Shown here piece by piece: positions 1 to 20,000 of a DNA stretch of 20,000 bases. Positions within the stretch are counted from its first letter, which is position 1; each line of letters begins with the position of its first letter. The notes below the pieces were generated by a model. That model was not told the DNA's origin. It saw nothing but the letters and a program-made list of their open reading frames with translations, and made no database searches. The translations under genes and the position numbers were made by a program. Origin of the DNA: Chiloscyllium plagiosum (lineage: Eukaryota); assembly GCF_004010195.1 (NCBI RefSeq), contig NC_057751.1, positions 3,404,475-3,424,474 on the forward strand. Direction: 5' to 3'.

Positions 1-207
1 GCATCCGAGGAGTAGGAGAATAGACATTTCACGCATAAGCTCTTCATCTGGAATGTTGGGGGTGGGGTGGTGAAGGGGGCTGAGGGATAAATAGGAGCGT
101 GGGGGTGGAGCTGGGGGCAATAAGTCAGTGGGAAAGGTGGAGCAGATAGGTGGGAAAGAAGATGGACAGATCAAGAGGACAGTGACCTGCAGTCCTCACT
201 TTGTCCT
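1..207 (-). mobile_element. Penelope-like element pLTR fragment (runs off window start), followed by a short opposite-strand copy of the element's 3' tail at 187-207
   Basis: 1-55 aligns by eye with 5654-5708 and 19692-19746. 187-207 (ctgcagtcctcactttgtcct) matches the + strand tail at 10401-10420. Confidence 0.75.
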
Positions 208-4521: not shown

Positions 4522-5262
4522 CTATGTACATGGACACCGAGATCTTTGCTCTTCTACACTTCCAAGAATCTTACCACTAGCCCAGTACTCTAAATTCCTG
4601 TTGTTCCTTCCAATGTGAAATACTTCACATTTTTCCACATTAAACTCCATTTGCCACCTTTCCGCCCAGCTCTGCAGTTTATCTATGTCCCTCTGTAACC
4701 TGCAACATCCTTCAGCACCATCCACAACTCCACCGACTTCAGTGTCATCTGGAAATTTACTAACCCATCCTTCGACGCCCTCATCCAGGTCATTTATAAA
4801 AATGACAAACAGCAATAAATCCAAAACAGATCCTTGCGGTACACCACTATTAACTGAACTCCAGAATAAATATTTCCCATCAAACACCACCCTCTGTCTT
4901 CTTTCAGTGAGCCAATTTCTGATCCAAACCGCAAGATCACCCTCAATCCGGTGCCTCTGTATTTTCTGCAATAGCCTTCCGTGAGGAACCGGATCAAATG
5001 CCTTACTGAAATACATATACATCGCATCAACCGCTTTACTGTCATCCACCCGTTTGGTCACCTTCTCAAAGAGCTCAATAAGGTTTGTGAGGCACGACCT
5101 ACCCTTCGCAAAATCGTGTTGACTATCCCTAATCAACTTATTCCTTGAGGAATGATTATAAATCCTATCTCTTCTAATCCTTTCCAAAACTTTGCCCACA
5201 ACCGAAGTGAGGTTCACTGGTTTATAATTACTCGGGTTGTTGCTACTCGCCTTCTTGAACAA
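4522..5262 (-). pseudogene. Reverse transcriptase domain remnant of the CR1 ORF2 (246-aa open stretch)
   Basis: Recognisable non-LTR RT motifs; the catalytic box reads FPDD instead of FADD and DFSKAFD reads YFSKAFD; frame broken on both sides. Confidence 0.9.
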
Positions 5263-5611
5263 AGGGACAACATTTGCTATTCTTAGTCTTCCGGCATTAT
5301 TCCTGTAGACAATGACAATATCGAGATCAAAACCAAAGGCTCTGCAATCTCCTCCCTGGTTTCCCAGAGAATCCTAGGATAAATCCCATCCAGTCTAAGG
5401 GGACTTATCTGTTTCATACTTTCCAGAATTGCTAACACCTCTTCATTGTGAACGTCAATCCCATCAATGACCTGTATCTCAGTATTCTCCTTGACAACGT
5501 TGTCTTTTTTCTGTGTGAATACTGATGAACAATATTCATTTAGCGCCTCTCCTATCTCCTTGGACTCCAAGCACAACTTCCCACTACTATCTATGACTGG
5601 CCCTAATCTTA

Positions 5612-6127
5612 GATTCGAGAGTGTGGTGCTGCAAAAGCATAGCAGGTCAGGCAGTATCTGAGGAGCAGGAGAATAGACATTTCAGGCAAAAGCCCTTCAT
5701 CAGGAATGAAGCTGGAAGCTGAGGGGGTGGAGAGATTTGGGGGTGGGGGTTGGTGGGGCTGGGGGGAAGGTAGGTGAGAGTGCGAGAGGTAGATGGAGAT
5801 GGGGGTAATGATGATAGGTCGGAGGGAGAGTGGAACAGATGGGTGGGAAGGAATATCGGCAGGTCATGAGGGCGGTGCTGAGCTGGAACTGGGGGGATGG
5901 GAAATGAGGAAACTGGTGAAATCCACTTTGATGCCATGGGGTTGGAGGGTCCCAAGGCAGAACGTGAGGCTTTCTTCCTCCTGGCGTCGGGTGGACAGGG
6001 CATGATGATGGAGACGGCATGTCCTTGGCAGAGTGGGAGGGGGAGTTGAAGTTTTCGGCTACAGGTCAGTGCGGTTGGTTGGTGTGGGTGTCCCAGAAAT
6101 ATTCTCTGAAGCGTTTTGCAAGGAGGA
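5612..6127 (-). mobile_element. Penelope-like element 3' fragment (end of GIY-YIG endonuclease region + pLTR), with 10-bp TSD
   Basis: CCTAATCTTA at 5602-5611 and 6128-6137. Minus-strand translation LLAKRFREY...PVAENFNSP/HSAKDM...RRQEEESLTFCLGTLQPHGIKVDFTSFLIS resembles the PLE GIY-YIG C-terminus. Decayed hammerhead at 5672-5707. Confidence 0.85.
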
Positions 6128-7215: not shown

Positions 7216-7697
7216 TCTTAGAGTTATAAGAGATGTACAGCATGGAAACAGATCCTTCGGTCCAACCTGTCCATGCCGACCAGATATCCCAACCCAAGCT
7301 CGTCCCACTTGCCAGCACCCGGCCCATATCCCTCCAAACCCGTCCTATTCATATACCCATCCAAATGCCTCTTAAATGTTGCAATTGTACCAGCCTCCAC
7401 CACATCCTCTGGCAGCGCATTCCATACATGTACCACCCTCTGCGTGAAAACGTTGCCCCTTAGGTGTCTTTTATATCATTCCCCTCTCACCCTAAACCTA
7501 TGCCCTCTAGTTCTGGACTCCCCGATCCCAGGGAAAAGACTTTGCCTATTTATCCTATCCATGTCCCTCATAATTTTGTAAACCTCAATAAGGTCACCCC
7601 TCAGCCTCTGACGCTCCAGGGAAAACAGCCCCAGCCTGTTCAGCCTCTCTCTATAGCTCAAATCCTCCAACCCTGGCAACATCCTTGTAAATCTTTC
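7216..7697 (-). mobile_element. CR1 LINE 3' end (ORF2 C-terminus and 3' UTR), 5'-truncated
   Basis: MLPGLEDLSYRERLNRLGLFSLERQRLRGDLIEVYKIM...TRGHRFRV and VHVWNALPEDVVEAGTIATFKRHLDGYM are typical CR1 C-terminal motifs. Confidence 0.93.
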
Positions 7698-9712: not shown

Positions 9713-9823
9713 ATGGATATGGGCCAGGTGCTGGCAGGTAGGACTAGATTGGGTTGGGATATCTGGTCAGCATGGACGGGTTGGACCGAAGGATCTGTTT
9801 CCTCGCTGTACATCTCTATGACA
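9713..9823 (+). mobile_element. Short CR1 3' UTR fragment
   Basis: Reverse-complement match to about 7228-7332 (ggatatgggccaggtgctggcagg...ttggaccgaaggatctgtttcc...gctgtacatctct). Confidence 0.88.
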
Positions 9824-9899
9824 CCTGAGAGGGAAAATAGAGTTGAAACTTTATTGCTGGAACAGCACAGCAGGTCAGGCAGCATCCAGGGAACAGGAG

Positions 9900-9935
9900 A
9901 TTCGACGTTTCGGGCACAGGCCCTTCTTCAGGAAT
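9900..9935 (-). ncRNA. Minimal type I hammerhead ribozyme motif (mirror copy)
   Basis: Exact reverse complement of 10292-10327. Confidence 0.8.
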
Positions 9936-10291
9936 GAGCAGAGAGTGTTCAGCAGGAGAAGATAAAAGGTAGGGAGGAGGGACTTGGAGGAGGGGAGTTG
10001 GAAATGTGATAGGTGGAAAGAGGTCAAGGTGAGGGTGATAGGTCGGAGTAGGGTGGAGGCGGAGAGGTCAAGAAGAAGACTGCAGGTCAGGAAGGCCTTC
10101 CTTGAAGAAGCTCTCTGCCTCTCTCTAACCGCCTTCCTGACCTGCAGTCTTCTTCTTGACCTCTCCGCCTCCACCCTACTCCGACCTATCACCCTCACCT
10201 TGACCTCTTTCCACCTATCACATTTCCAACTCCCCTCCTCCAAGTCCCTCCTCCCTACCTTTTATCTTCTCCTGCTGAACACTCTCTGCTC

Positions 10292-10327
10292 ATTCCTGAA
10301 GAAGGGCCTGTGCCCGAAACGTCGAAT
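10292..10327 (+). ncRNA. Minimal type I hammerhead ribozyme motif in PLE pLTR
   Basis: ATTC (stem I) CTGAAGA (core) A GGGC-ctgt-GCCC (stem II) GAAA C GTC (predicted cleavage after 10323) GAAT (stem I partner). Stem III is reduced to self-complementary ACGT. Confidence 0.8.
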
Positions 10328-10739
10328 CTCCTGTTCCCTGGATGCTGCCTGACCTGCTGTGCTGTTCCAGCAATAAAGTTTCAACTTTGATCTCCAGCAT
10401 CTGCAGACCTCACTTTCTCCAGGGAAAATAGAGCCCCAGTCTAATGTTTCACGTAAACTGACATTTGCAACAGTGCGGCACGCCCTTCCACCAAGCTCTA
10501 GCTATCCTGCACCAGCTGTTGATGAATTGATCCCAGGCATCATCTGAGAGCTGCCCTCGGACTTTCCCTCTGCATACTGTCTGCTGAGGGTGGAGTTTAA
10601 GTCTGTGTGCTCTCACTCTGAGTGCAGTGTGTGTCTGAGTGATTCATGGTGCTGCCTACTCAGTGATAAGCCTGGTTTGACATTTACATGTTCCTGATGT
10701 TAATTGGTGGACAAGCTTCCCACTTCCTGGGCCCTCAAT

Positions 10740-10922
10740 CTGTTATCTCAGCACCTCTCGTATCTCTTTTTTAAGCTGTGCCTTGAAGTTGACCTCTTGG
10801 ACCAAGCTTTGGGTTACATGTCGCACTGTAGCTGAGTGTCAAATCTTGTTTAACAACTGCTTCTGTGAAGCATCGTGAGGCACTTTACTATGCTCCAGGT
10901 GCTAGTTAAACGTGGGTTGTTG
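10740..10922 (+). mobile_element. Old L2-type LINE 3' end, degenerate
   Basis: ctgtgaagcatcgtgaggcactttactatgctccaggtgctagttaaacgtgggttgttg resembles the L2-type terminal motif (tgtgaagcgccttggga...aaggcgctatataaatg) with a (ttg)n tail; from memory. Confidence 0.5.
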
Positions 10923-13017
10923 GAACTACAGGCACCGTCTTGGCAGTCTGTGTCCCACTGGCTATGTCTGTACATCAGTAAGTGAGGGTTTCCACTGTGC
11001 TCCAAGTCTGCATTTATTTAGGATTGATGAGTAGTACATTCTTTATGAGCCTGCCCTGGAGTGTTCATTTCATTCAGCGAAGGGAAACAAAATGAGACAG
11101 TCATCACATGTTGGCTGCTGTCCAATGTATTTCATCATTGCTCTTTTACTTTATATTCCACCTCCAGTCCAAGAGCTGTGACAGAGTTACCTCCGGTCCT
11201 CCCTCACTTCGGTTTCAATGGTTTCTCCAGAAGTGAGTCACATTTAATCTTTACAAAGTGGATTGATATTTGAAAATTAAACAAGAATATAAAGTCAAAA
11301 CCAAAAAAAAACAAACTGACATCATGCTTCTTCATGAAATAAACCTTGGGCTTAAAGGCCAATGGGTAAGTTCCTTTCAGGGAACTTCTGTGAGGAAACT
11401 TTGCCCATGTGTAGGTGCTCCTGAAGAGGACACAGTCAGCGAAAGCAATCCAAAATCAGAGATCAGAATCCACATCAGGCAGCTGGGGGAATTCATTGAA
11501 TTTCAGAGAAGGAGCAGTCTTCTCCATGCTGTCAGTAAATCATTTCTTTGGGATGGATGCCCAGTGACAGGGCTTGCCTGATGAATTATCCTCAGTTAGT
11601 GGAAACAGATTGCCCCCGGAAGTGGTCTGGGCGCAATTCCAGACATTTGCTGTCCTTCCAGCTTTCAGCTGCCCGACACCTTCATGTTGACCTAACAATA
11701 CGGGTCTCAAATTGTTTCACAAAGCAGAATTAAGGAGTGCAATTTGCTCATACCACTTTGGCTGTATTGCTCAATGGTTTCTTGGAATTTTTCTATGATT
11801 TCACACAAAATAGGTTTGTGTTTAGCAACTGATGATTTGAGCAAAGCCACGCAAGTGGAGTAGGTAAAGCTGTTTGTACTTGTTCCTCTGAGATTTTGCC
11901 AAGAATGAATATGTATCAACATTTCTGGTCAATACAGCATTGATTTACTGCTCTTCTTGCACCCTGTTTGAGGGTTGAAATGGGAATGTAGTTCAATTTC
12001 TGATCCTGCAGTTTTGACACTGGTGAGGTAAAAGAGAAAGAGAATGGGTTATCTGATCAGTTTTCAGTTGCTTTGCCATCATGTTTGTTCCACGTGGTAA
12101 GAGATTGGATCCTTTCATCCAATTACCCCATGACTGCTGGGTCTCGACTTGTAATCGGAACTGAGCCAGGTGTAACCAGGCCCTGGTCAGAAGTTTGGTT
12201 CAAAGACTAATCCATCAATTGTGCTCCCTACCCCACTTGAGGGATGGGGAATGTTTTCTGTCTCTGTCTGGCTCTCACTCTGGCTGTTACTTTCCCTGTC
12301 TTTCTTAGTCATCCAGCCACCTGAGCGAACAGTCAACCCCTTTATGGAACACACCATTCCTGGCCAAACAACCCAACTACTTTGCAAATGTGTTCAGGGA
12401 AAGAAATGTTTGCTATTGGTGCAGTGTGGTTGATATGTGACTCCAGACTCTCAGCAGTGTGATTGGCTGTCACCTGCCTGCTGAAATGACCCTGCACCTC
12501 TCTTATTTGAAGCAACTGTATAATTGTATACAGTAATCACAAAGACTTCAGTAGTTCAAGAGGGGATTTCACCGCCGCCTTTGCAAGGATGTCTGAATTC
12601 ATTTTGAAATGGAGGTTGCTCCTTCTGAGAAGCTGACATCCGTGTTCAGGCAACTGCTCGTCAAACTTACCTCTGCACTAAATTCTTCCCTTGTCATTGT
12701 GTGAATTCATTCCAAAGGTTGTGTAATTTTACAACGGCAGTAGTTTGAATGACCAGGGGTAGGCTGGAATGTGATGGAAACATGAAAATAAAAAATATGA
12801 AAGTGGAATTATTGAGTTTTAAATTGCTGATTTCATAACCACAAACAGGTAGGAATTAGTCCTGGCTAATACTATAGACCAGTGTGGAATATATGTCGGT
12901 TATAAGGATCACCTGAGTGGGAAAACAGAGTAAACTGTTCCTTCCACTGCAATGTTTTGTCTGTTACAGATATTTGTCAAGTATCTGCAACAAATTTTTT
13001 TTCTTCCTTTATGAGAT

Positions 13018-13914
13018 GGAAGAGGGAGTCGAAGGGTGGGTCAGTAAATTTGCAGACGATACGAAGATTGGTGGAGTTGTGGATAGTGAGGAGGGCTGTT
13101 GTCGGCTGCAAAGGGACTTAGATATGATGCAGAGCTGGGCTGAGGAGTGGCAGATGGAGTTGAACCCTGTCAAGTGTGAGGTTGTCCATTTTGGAAGGAC
13201 AAATGAGAATGCGGAATACAGGGTTAACGGTACGGTTCTTAGTAAGGTGGAGGAGCAGAGGGATCTTGGGGTCTATGTTCATAGATCTTTGAAAGTTGCC
13301 ACTCAGGTGGATAGAGCTTGTAAGAAGGCCTATGGTGTATTAGCGTTCATTAGCAGAGGGATTGAATTCAAGAGTCGTGAGGTGATGTTGCAGCTGTACA
13401 GGACCTTGGTAAGGCCACATTTGGAGTACTGTGTGCAGTTCTGGTCGCCTCATTTTAGGAAAGATGTGGAAGCTTTGGAGAGGGTGCAGAGGAGGTTTAC
13501 AGGATGTTGCCTGGAATGGAGAATAGGTCGTACAAGGATAGGTTGAGAGTGCAAGGCCTTTTCTCATCGGAACGGCCAAGGATGAGGGGTGACTTGATGG
13601 AGGTTTATAAGATGATCAGGGGAATAGATAGAGTAGACAGTCAGAGACTTTTTCCCCGGGTACAACAGAGTGTTACAAGGGGACATAAATTTAAGGTGAA
13701 GGGTGGAAGGTATAGGGGGGATGTCAGGGGTAGGTTCTTTACCCAGAGAGTGGTGGGGGCATGGAATGCGCTGCCTGTGGGAGTGGCAGAGTCAGAATCA
13801 TTGGTGACCTTTAAGCGGCAATTGGATAGGTACATGGATAAGCTCGGACAAATGTTCGGCACAACATCGTGGGCCGAAGAGCCTGTTCTGTGCTGTATTG
13901 TTCTATGTTCTATG
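13018..13914 (+). mobile_element. CR1 LINE 3' portion (RT C-terminal half to tail), 5'-truncated, relatively young
   Basis: EEGVEGWVSKFADDTKIGG...RPHLEYCVQFWSPH...LERVQRRFT; one frameshift near 13500; RFFTQRVVGAWNALP; (TTCTATG)2 tail; TATGAGAT at 13010-13017 and 13911-13918. Confidence 0.95.
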
Positions 13915-18311: not shown

Positions 18312-18705
18312 CGGGATGTTTTTTCACTGCAGCGCAGGATATTGAGTGGTGACCTTACAGAGGTGTACAGATAAGGTGAATGACAGGTGTCTTTTCCCTA
18401 CGACGGGGGATTTCAAGACTTGGAGGAGGATACTTTAAAGGTGAGAGCAAAAAGCTTTAAACGAGACATAAGGGGCAACTTTTTTTACACAGCGAGTGAT
18501 TCATGTGTGGAATGAACTTCCAAAGTAAGTGTTGGATGTGGGGACAGTTAGAGCAATTAAAAGACATTTGGATAAGCACATGAATACGCAAGGTTTAGAG
18601 GGATATGGGCCAGGAGCAGGCAGGTGGGACTAGTTTACTTTGGGATTTTGGTCAGCATGGACTGGTTGGGCCAAAGGGTCTGCTTCTGTGCTCTTTAACT
18701 CTGAG
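18312..18705 (+). mobile_element. CR1 LINE 3' end, degenerate
   Basis: ggtgaccttacagaggtgtac, aggggcaacttttttacacag, gtgtggaatgaacttcc, aaaagacatttggat and gagggatatgggccagg match 7216-7697 in reverse complement. Confidence 0.88.
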
Positions 18706-19616: not shown

Positions 19617-20000
19617 GGAGAAAGTGAGGACTGCAGATGCTGGAGATCAGAGCTGAAAATGTGTTGCTGGAAAAGCGCAACAGGTCAGGCAGCATCCAAG
19701 GAACAGGAGAATCGACGTTTCGGGCATAAGCCCTTCTTCAGGAATGAGGAAAGTGTGTCCAGCAGGCTAAGATGAAAGGTAGGGAGGAGGGACTTGGGGA
19801 GGGGCATTGGAAATGCGATAGGTGGAAGGAAGTCAAGGTGAGGGTGATTGGCCGAAGTGGGGTGGGGGCGGAGAGGTCAGGAAGAAGATTGCAGGTTAGG
19901 AAGGTGGTGCTGAGTTCGAGGGATTTGACTGAGACAAGGTGGGGGGAGGGGAAATGAGGAAACTAGTGAAATCCGAGTTCATCCCTTGTGGTTGGAGGGT
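19617..20000 (-). mobile_element. Penelope-like element 3' end (pLTR with tail; continues beyond the window into the endonuclease ORF)
   Basis: Highly similar to the reverse complement of 10131-10420 including the tail; 19950-20000 translates on minus to TLQPQGMNSDFTSFLIS. Confidence 0.88.
19710..19745 (-). ncRNA. Minimal type I hammerhead ribozyme motif, core intact
   Basis: Minus strand: ATTC-CTGAAGA-A-GGGC-ttat-GCCC-GAAA-CGTC-GATT. Confidence 0.75.

What the first reader, a model, noticed from the sequence alone, without database searches (positions are those of the whole stretch)
9830..10433. Perfect 256-bp palindromic PLE insertion with 13-bp TSD, 34-bp tail and a hammerhead on each strand
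Seen: arms 9841-10096 and 10131-10386 are reverse complements with no mismatch found, around a 34-bp spacer; a 34-bp unpaired tail follows (10387-10420); AGGGAAAATAGAG flanks both ends, its last AG overlapping the left arm. No RT or endonuclease sequence is included. Established: PLEs often carry an inverted truncated pLTR and a 30-40 nt 3' extension. Inference: one very recent event made a non-coding, MITE-looking unit. Any read-through transcript would contain one sense ribozyme but could fold into a 256-bp hairpin that sequesters it and is a Dicer/ADAR substrate, possibly silencing the family. The DNA could extrude a cruciform.
Basis: partly seen in the sequence, partly recalled or inferred. 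Interest (0 to 1): 0.78.

Follow-up and report, generated by a model that had tools for sequence, protein, structure and literature searches.

The report
Polymorphic mirror-image Penelope insertion
This mirror-image stretch is a real, recent insertion of the tail end of a very common jumping gene (a Penelope-like element), absent from some other individuals and one of likely thousands of similar back-to-back inserts in this genome, so it is ordinary as an object; it was likely made by copying the element's RNA from both sides of one DNA cut.

Summary
The coordinates are exact: 256/256-bp arms, 34-bp spacer, 34-bp tail, 13-bp duplication, a minimal hammerhead on each strand. Contigs of two other samples carry the empty site with one copy of the 13-mer, so the duplication is a true TSD and the insert is polymorphic. 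It belongs to a young RT + GIY-YIG Penelope-like family with a Neptune/Nematis-type linker. A 26-mer of its 3' end has 19,009 exact matches; 48 of the first 100 sit in tail-out pairs. In 24 of 24 pairs one arm ends at the tail end and the other 24-35 nt earlier. The spacer is the start of the element's ORF. One junction is unique in the assembly, so this is not an amplifying mini-element; the other recurs in three differently built inserts. The layout, including opposite-strand hammerheads, is published. Likely mechanism: twin priming from both nicked strands at the two initiation sites. No read spans the interior, and I found no evidence of transcription or silencing. The scan has noted this kind of insert many times, here and in other genomes. 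Verdict: new member of a known kind, low interest.

The parts
9830..9842 (+). Left copy of the 13-bp target-site duplication; last 2 nt also fit the inverted arm (microhomology)
   Evidence: single copy at the empty site
9841..10096 (-). Inverted, tail-less copy of the PLE 3' UTR (family positions -34 to -289, tail end = 0)
9900..9935 (-). Minimal hammerhead motif, minus-strand copy (core 9931-9904; limits mirrored from the plus copy)
10089..10102 (.). 14-bp palindromic inversion junction with a 2-nt GC overlap; an 8-nt word is shared by the ORF start and the ORF end; the same junction is in 3 other loci
10095..10127 (+). Spacer = start of the PLE ORF (positions +40 to +72 behind the tail of a tandem copy; codons 2-11)
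10128..10140 (+). Last three codons and stop of the PLE ORF; blunt junction at 10127/10128, unique in the assembly
10131..10386 (+). Direct copy of the PLE 3' UTR (right arm), identical to other young copies
10292..10327 (+). Minimal hammerhead motif: 4-bp helix I, CUGAAGA, extra A, 4-bp helix II, GAAAC-GUC with no helix III; predicted cut after 10323 (family position -97)
   Evidence: features as in PMC4209133; no Rfam hammerhead hit
10387..10420 (+). 34-nt PLE tail, on this arm only
10421..10433 (+). Right copy of the target-site duplication

Best explanation
This is a single, recent, polymorphic insertion of the 3' end of a young endonuclease-bearing Penelope-like retrotransposon, likely made by twin priming, in which both strands of one staggered cut each start a DNA copy of the element's RNA. 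Shown: the insert, its 13-bp TSD, the empty allele, the family, the source of each segment, and the rule that one arm ends at the tail end and the other about 34 nt earlier. Inferred steps: (1) the element's protein nicks both target strands 13 nt apart; (2) one 3' end primes at the tail end and copies 293 nt; (3) the other primes at the second initiation site about 34 nt upstream, helped by 2 nt of pairing, and copies about 255 nt; (4) one copy picks up about 32 nt of the ORF start, by a template jump or because its template already held that junction; (5) the two copies are joined at short or no homology and filled in. The product has no ORF and is predicted to be inert: either transcript would carry only one minimal hammerhead, which needs a partner and would be paired away in the hairpin.
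For: Empty allele in samples S2 and S4; S1 consistent but letters not shown. Family ORF with RT motifs, CX5CxxC linker and C-terminal GIY-YIG. 24 of 24 tail-out pairs taken in order from contig C1 have one end at 0 and one at -24 to -35; none has two tails or none (about 1e-8 if ends were independent). The -26 to -35 end is also the free 3' end of 6 of 16 unpaired matches, so it behaves as a start site, not a fold-back stop. TSDs of 12-17 nt in 18 of 24 pairs. In vitro, an anole Poseidon protein cleaves and extends both strands, starts at two sites that bracket the tail, and is predicted to be a dimer (PMC11167929, parts 1-2 of the text read). In 7 of 13 inverted pairs the arms differ at 5 or more sites, with alleles that recur in other loci, which points to separate copying events.
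Against: The in-vitro work is on a Poseidon element, not this clade, and does not address inversions in the parts I read. The window's own arms are identical and equal the reference haplotype, so they cannot tell twin priming from fold-back, or one RNA from two. Arms share all variants in L108 and L030b, which fits one template or fold-back. Arm differences and shared junctions could be gap-filling products of this N-rich assembly: in the 27 loci with one common junction, 12 abut N runs, only 7 show a TSD and 5 break the one-tail rule. The left junction has a 14-bp palindrome, the feature that PMC3846280 reads as self-priming. No laid contig spans the interior; the filled right junction rests on one contig of S3 with only about 24 letters on the element side, under the tool's 31-letter bridging limit.
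Confidence: 0.7

Rival explanations
1. Self-priming (fold-back): one DNA copy folds at the junction palindrome and copies itself, giving the second arm; published for PLE inverted repeats as self-priming on an antisense template.
For: 0 mismatches between arms; 14-bp palindrome at the left junction; L108 is a spacer-less 264-bp palindrome whose arms share 6 variants; PMC3846280 Discussion.
Against: Does not explain why the second arm stops at -24 to -35 in 24 of 24 pairs, a place also used as a free end. The spacer is ORF-start sequence, not the loop next to the arm. Arms differ by recurrent alleles in 7 of 13 pairs (assembly caveat).
Confidence: 0.13
2. The insertion is real but its interior, as assembled, is partly an artefact: the arms were collapsed to one sequence or the gap was filled with a junction from other copies.
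For: 101,977 contigs with many N gaps at these repeats. The left junction is shared with three loci whose arms carry -246T, -189G and -99A, alleles absent from the window's arm. The 27-locus junction class looks mosaic. No laid contig spans the interior.
Against: No N in the window; TSD exact and confirmed; the right junction is unique, so not borrowed from another assembled locus; the one-tail rule is kept; the same assembly holds arms that differ.
Confidence: 0.12
3. A non-autonomous, MITE-like palindromic unit that spreads as such.
For: The left junction occurs in 4 loci. A different junction occurs in 27 loci, 9 of them with the same inverted-arm haplotype, so some palindromic layouts may be re-copied.
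Against: The right junction has 1 exact match in 3.56 Gb. The three other loci with the left junction are built differently, carry the tail on that arm and share alleles that the window lacks. A 13-bp TSD with asymmetric ends fits retrotransposition, not a DDE-type MITE (recalled).
Confidence: 0.03
4. The palindrome is a functional hairpin-RNA locus that silences the family.
For: Any read-through RNA is predicted to form a 256-bp duplex; PLE small RNAs are reported in a rotifer and Drosophila (PMC3846280).
Against: Polymorphic, absent from sampled haplotypes of at least two individuals; one of thousands of such hairpins; no host exon found among 29 ORFs; the family has 19,009 exact-match ends.
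Confidence: 0.02

Closest known systems
Inverted-pLTR insertion units of endonuclease-bearing PLEs (Pen2a_Av of Adineta vaga, PMC3846280; general scheme in PMC8557442, Fig. 2 legend)
   Same: Inverted 5'-truncated copy at the 5' end, 30-40-bp tail on one end only, whole unit flanked by a TSD, palindrome at the inverted junction.
   Different: No ORF between the arms, only its first and last codons; arms of 254-256 bp still identical; insertion shown to be polymorphic.
Minimal hammerheads of metazoan PLEs (PMC4209133)
   Same: Core without helix III, short helix I, extra base before helix II, palindromic 15.2-16.2; pairs on opposite strands about 100-700 bp apart are described there (here about 365 bp).
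   Different: Helix II is 4 bp here, not the 7-8 bp of the Schistosoma motifs; cleavage not tested.
PAc, anole Poseidon element in vitro (PMC11167929)
   Same: Two start sites bracketing the tail; both target strands cut and extended; hammerhead not needed for insertion.
   Different: This family has the linker Zn-finger absent from Penelope/Poseidon, and its hammerhead and tail lie upstream of the ORF start codon; inversions were not addressed in the parts read.
LINE-1 twin-priming 5' inversions (recalled, not read)
   Same: Second target strand primes a second DNA copy; join at 0-3 nt microhomology; TSD kept.
   Different: L1 inversions use non-overlapping parts of one RNA; here both copies cover the same 3' region and so make a palindrome.
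Non-LTR retrozymes (bioRxiv 10.64898/2026.07.22.740005, passages)
   Same: Non-coding, hammerhead-bearing, derived from PLE termini.
   Different: Retrozymes are head-to-tail tandems; this is a single head-to-head unit. A precise ORF-less direct junction had 0 matches.

Membership tests
Endonuclease-bearing Penelope-like element | Parent element has one ORF with PLE-type RT and C-terminal GIY-YIG endonuclease with CCHH motif | tested here: met
   470-aa open stretch of L085 with RT motifs, IYCxxC...YIG core; Pfam RVT_1 and GIY-YIG hits, both just under cut-off; 93 homologues at E<=1e-20. No single full-length copy recovered (N gaps).
Endonuclease-bearing Penelope-like element | Pseudo-LTRs in tandem or inverted arrangement | tested here: met
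   Tail followed directly by the next unit in tandem copies; inverted arm in 10 of 30 best matches.
Endonuclease-bearing Penelope-like element | Optional 30-40-bp tail on one end | tested here: met
   34-36 nt here; 24 of 24 pairs have it on one arm only.
Endonuclease-bearing Penelope-like element | TSD around the whole unit | tested here: met
   13 bp, single at the empty site.
Endonuclease-bearing Penelope-like element | Hammerhead motif in the pLTR | tested here: met
   against the description in PMC4209133; activity not tested.
Neptune or Nematis clade | CX2-5CxxC linker between RT and endonuclease (absent in Penelope/Poseidon, PMC8557442) | tested here: met
   CNRRRCNTC at residue 318 of the L085 stretch.
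Neptune clade | Placement in an RT tree with named reference elements | not tested
   No clade-labelled references among the homologues; Neptune is preferred over Nematis only because Neptune and Poseidon were the vertebrate groups in bioRxiv 10.64898/2026.07.22.740005.
MITE or amplifying non-autonomous unit | Several dispersed copies of the same unit | tested here: not met
   Right junction 1 match; left junction 4 matches in differently built inserts.
Non-LTR retrozyme | Head-to-tail tandem monomers with hammerheads in one orientation | tested here: not met
   Head-to-head layout; no such array in the window.
Hairpin-RNA (endo-siRNA) locus | Transcript across both arms and small RNAs from the stem | not testable with these tools
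   One RNA run, about 2% read, gave 0 reads on the right flank, which the tool calls no test.

The most novel reading that the evidence does not exclude
Penelope palindromes are built by one dimeric complex that must use both initiation sites, one per target strand, often on two different RNAs; and rearranged or palindromic copies are themselves transcribed and hand their inversion junction on to new inserts. The window's left junction would then be inherited from such a source, and the junction found in 27 loci would mark a self-propagating palindromic sub-family.
Probability: 0.3. Interest if true: 0.5.

Novelty: new member of a known kind. Interest (0 to 1): 0.2.

Why it matters
As an object it matters little: the layout is published and the genome holds thousands. 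It is a usable presence/absence marker, since empty alleles exist. As a group, the sister inserts bear on an open point named in PMC8557442, how PLEs make inverted units and one-sided tails: the strict one-tail rule links the two in-vitro start sites to the two target strands and gives a direct test. Four searches of the held library listed no paper that states this twin-priming model for PLEs; subscription journals and supplements were not seen, and the scan's own earlier notes already propose it.

Tried and rejected
Rfam gave only below-threshold hairpin (miRNA-type) matches and no hammerhead family; these reflect the palindrome. No RNA holder was listed for the stretch, and 0 reads of run X21 lay on 10403-11000 with about 2% of the run read: no test of expression. 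The first lay was swamped by other copies inside the arms and could not check the interior. Co-folding two hammerhead copies gave no clear dimeric ribozyme fold; not used. A precise ORF-less direct junction at the shared 8-nt word: 0 matches. Truncation at the ribozyme cut site as a sign of cleavage in vivo: not seen; 27 of 48 inner ends lie at -122 to -130, the 5' edge of the motif, and 2 of 48 at -90 to -100. A full-length autonomous copy was not recovered from 10 longer stretches. Whether the 27-locus junction is biology or gap filling could not be settled. No tree was built. Host gene context: 29 ORFs of 90 aa or more gave two RT hits and one weak low-complexity hit; short exons would be missed. 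The host species was not determined; 'shark-like' comes from earlier scan notes only.

Full report
Observation. The description is exact. The arms 9841-10096 and 10131-10386 match as reverse complements at 256 of 256 positions, the spacer and the tail are 34 nt each, and the 13-mer occurs only at 9830-9842 and 10421-10433. The window has no N. A hammerhead core lies in each arm, on opposite strands. Rfam lists no hammerhead family here, only below-threshold hairpin matches. The motif fits the minimal type of PMC4209133 (parts 1-2 of 4 read): no helix III, 4-bp helix I, an extra base before helix II. Below, family positions count from the tail end (window 10420 = 0).

The TSD is real and the insert is polymorphic. 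Four samples from two studies were laid. In runs X2 (S2) and X6 (S4) the contig of the right flank continues left of 10421 for 56 and 37 letters; the 30 letters shown are window 9800-9829. That is the empty site with one copy of the 13-mer. X1 (S1) has 37 unlaid letters at the same place, not shown. One contig of X7 (S3) runs from the tail into the flank, with about 24 letters on the element side, below the tool's 31-letter limit for a bridge; S3 could also be the source of the assembly. No contig spans the interior.

The family. The window lies in a 3.56-Gb assembly of 101,977 contigs. The right arm and tail have many 99-100% matches. [quoted passage not shown] PMC8557442 (passages) gives the linker to Neptune and Nematis and not to Penelope/Poseidon; I built no tree. 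A 26-mer next to the tail has 19,009 exact matches.

Anatomy. The right part, 10128-10420, is the last three codons, the stop, the 3' UTR and the tail (-292 to 0). The left arm is the same UTR inverted, -34 to -289. The spacer is not foreign: 10095-10127 equals positions +40 to +72 behind the tail in tandem copies, the first codons of the ORF. An 8-nt word is shared by the ORF's start and end, which makes the left junction a 14-bp palindrome with a 2-nt overlap. The right junction is blunt.

Is it a mini-element? No. The right junction has 1 exact match in the assembly. The left junction has 4, but the other three inserts (L073-L075) are built differently, carry the tail on that arm, and share -246T, -189G and -99A, which the window lacks. 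They look like daughters of one rearranged source. The window's left junction was then either formed again at a hotspot (several unrelated breakpoints fall at -287 to -298) or inherited with a template switch close to the junction. I cannot choose between these.

How common is the layout? Of the first 100 listed matches of the 26-mer, 48 form 24 tail-out pairs under 1 kb and none forms the opposite inverted pair; scaled up, about 4,500 pairs, a rough figure from 18 Mb of one contig. I fetched all 24 pairs and 16 of the 52 other matches. In 24 of 24 pairs one arm ends at 0 and the other at -24 to -35; 18 show a TSD of 12-17 nt; 12 have identical arms over their overlap. The anchor requires both arms to reach -35, but two tails or no tail could have been seen. 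Of the 16 others, 10 end at 0 and 6 at -26 to -35. Most arms are short, so the window's is at the long end, yet 32 loci have long arms with a small gap, and L108 is a 264-bp perfect palindrome with no spacer. Among the 30 best matches of the right arm, 10 have an inverted arm.

Mechanism. PMC11167929 (parts 1-2 of 4 read) shows that a Poseidon protein cuts and extends both target strands, starts at two sites that bracket the tail, and does not need the hammerhead. The one-tail rule follows if each strand of one staggered cut primes at one of the two sites and the two copies are then joined. This step is inferred. The published alternative is self-priming (PMC3846280, passages and Discussion read). 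It fits the identical arms and the junction palindrome, but not the fixed stop at about -34 or an ORF-start spacer. In 7 of 13 inverted pairs the arms differ at 5 or more sites, with alleles that recur elsewhere; in L030b and L108 they share all variants. So one-template and two-template events may both occur; the window is uninformative. Inner ends cluster at -122 to -130 (27 of 48), not at the predicted cut at -97, which suggests an RNA 5' end or an RT stop there and gives no sign of ribozyme cleavage.

A caution from a sister class. 27 of the 32 long tight palindromes share one junction. Their inverted arm has a non-A base at -261 in 25 of 27, the direct arm in 0 of 27, against 382 of 2,000 genome-wide; 9 share a full inverted-arm haplotype. 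This could be a re-copied palindromic source. But 12 of 27 abut N runs, often at the same positions, only 7 show a TSD, and 5 break the one-tail rule, as gap filling through a repeat graph might produce. The same doubt applies, more weakly, to the arm comparisons above and to the window's interior.

Function. A read-through RNA is predicted to fold into the full hairpin and bury the sense hammerhead. Each strand holds only one motif, and a single minimal motif showed no cleavage in PMC4209133. No host exon was found among 29 ORFs and the RNA lay was no test. With thousands of like hairpins and empty alleles in the population, a special silencing role has no support. In yeast, breakage at inverted repeats falls sharply for spacers above 8 nt (PMC8053094, passages), so a 34-nt spacer argues against easy cruciform formation; this is an extrapolation.

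Known or new. The inverted arm, one-sided tail, TSD and junction palindrome are described for Pen2a_Av (PMC3846280) and for PLEs in general (PMC8557442); opposite-strand hammerheads 100-700 bp apart are in PMC4209133. Searches listed no paper stating twin priming for PLEs; I saw those listings, not all texts, and no supplements. Earlier notes of this scan describe the same kind of insert and the same model in this and other genomes; my reading was entered before I saw them, and they are not independent support. Verdict: real, ordinary, a new member of a known kind; interest 0.2.

Noticed in passing
L161-L187 (27 loci, e.g. L177 = G000:C18:1354139): 27 palindromic inserts share one identical inversion junction (-287/-298) with strongly arm-specific alleles; either a re-copied palindromic source or assembly gap filling.
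   Followed up: partly
L017, L071, L090, L098: A second shared junction (inverted arm ending at -290, 34-nt insert, then -199) with shared alleles -265G and -246T; likely daughters of one rearranged source.
   Followed up: partly
L073, L074, L075: Inserts with an antisense piece of the ORF start joined to the 3' UTR; all carry -99A, which changes the hammerhead's G16.2, yet were retrotransposed with TSDs, in line with the ribozyme being dispensable.
   Followed up: partly
L066:2282-6259 and L067:1982-6075: Two dispersed copies share 3,081 bp at 99.97%: ORF 5' part, about 3 kb that does not match this family's RT-endonuclease (one 27% endonuclease-like piece), then the last 136 nt with hammerhead and tail; different flanks. 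A chimeric or host-capturing non-autonomous PLE.
   Followed up: partly
L108 (G000:C3:61528853): Spacer-less 264-bp perfect palindrome with TSD whose arms share six variants; a better cruciform candidate than the window's.
   Followed up: partly
L121-L160: Most 5' ends fall at -122 to -130, just upstream of the hammerhead, as do the upstream pLTRs of tandem copies; may mark the RNA start.
   Followed up: partly
L070, L071 (ORF 5' region): The ORF carries a 36-bp in-frame tandem repeat of variable copy number, where many assembled copies break into N gaps.
   Followed up: no
window 1-55, 5627-5950, 19617-20000: Older, diverged PLE 3' ends (about 69-88% to the insert) with hammerhead cores at -5703-5676 and -19741-19714.
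   Followed up: no
window 9715-9817: The insert landed about 12 bp behind a repeat 3' end that recurs at 7229-7331 and 18601-18702; LINE-type RT fragments lie at 4525-5373 and 12917-13543. CR1-like by recalled resemblance only.
   Followed up: no
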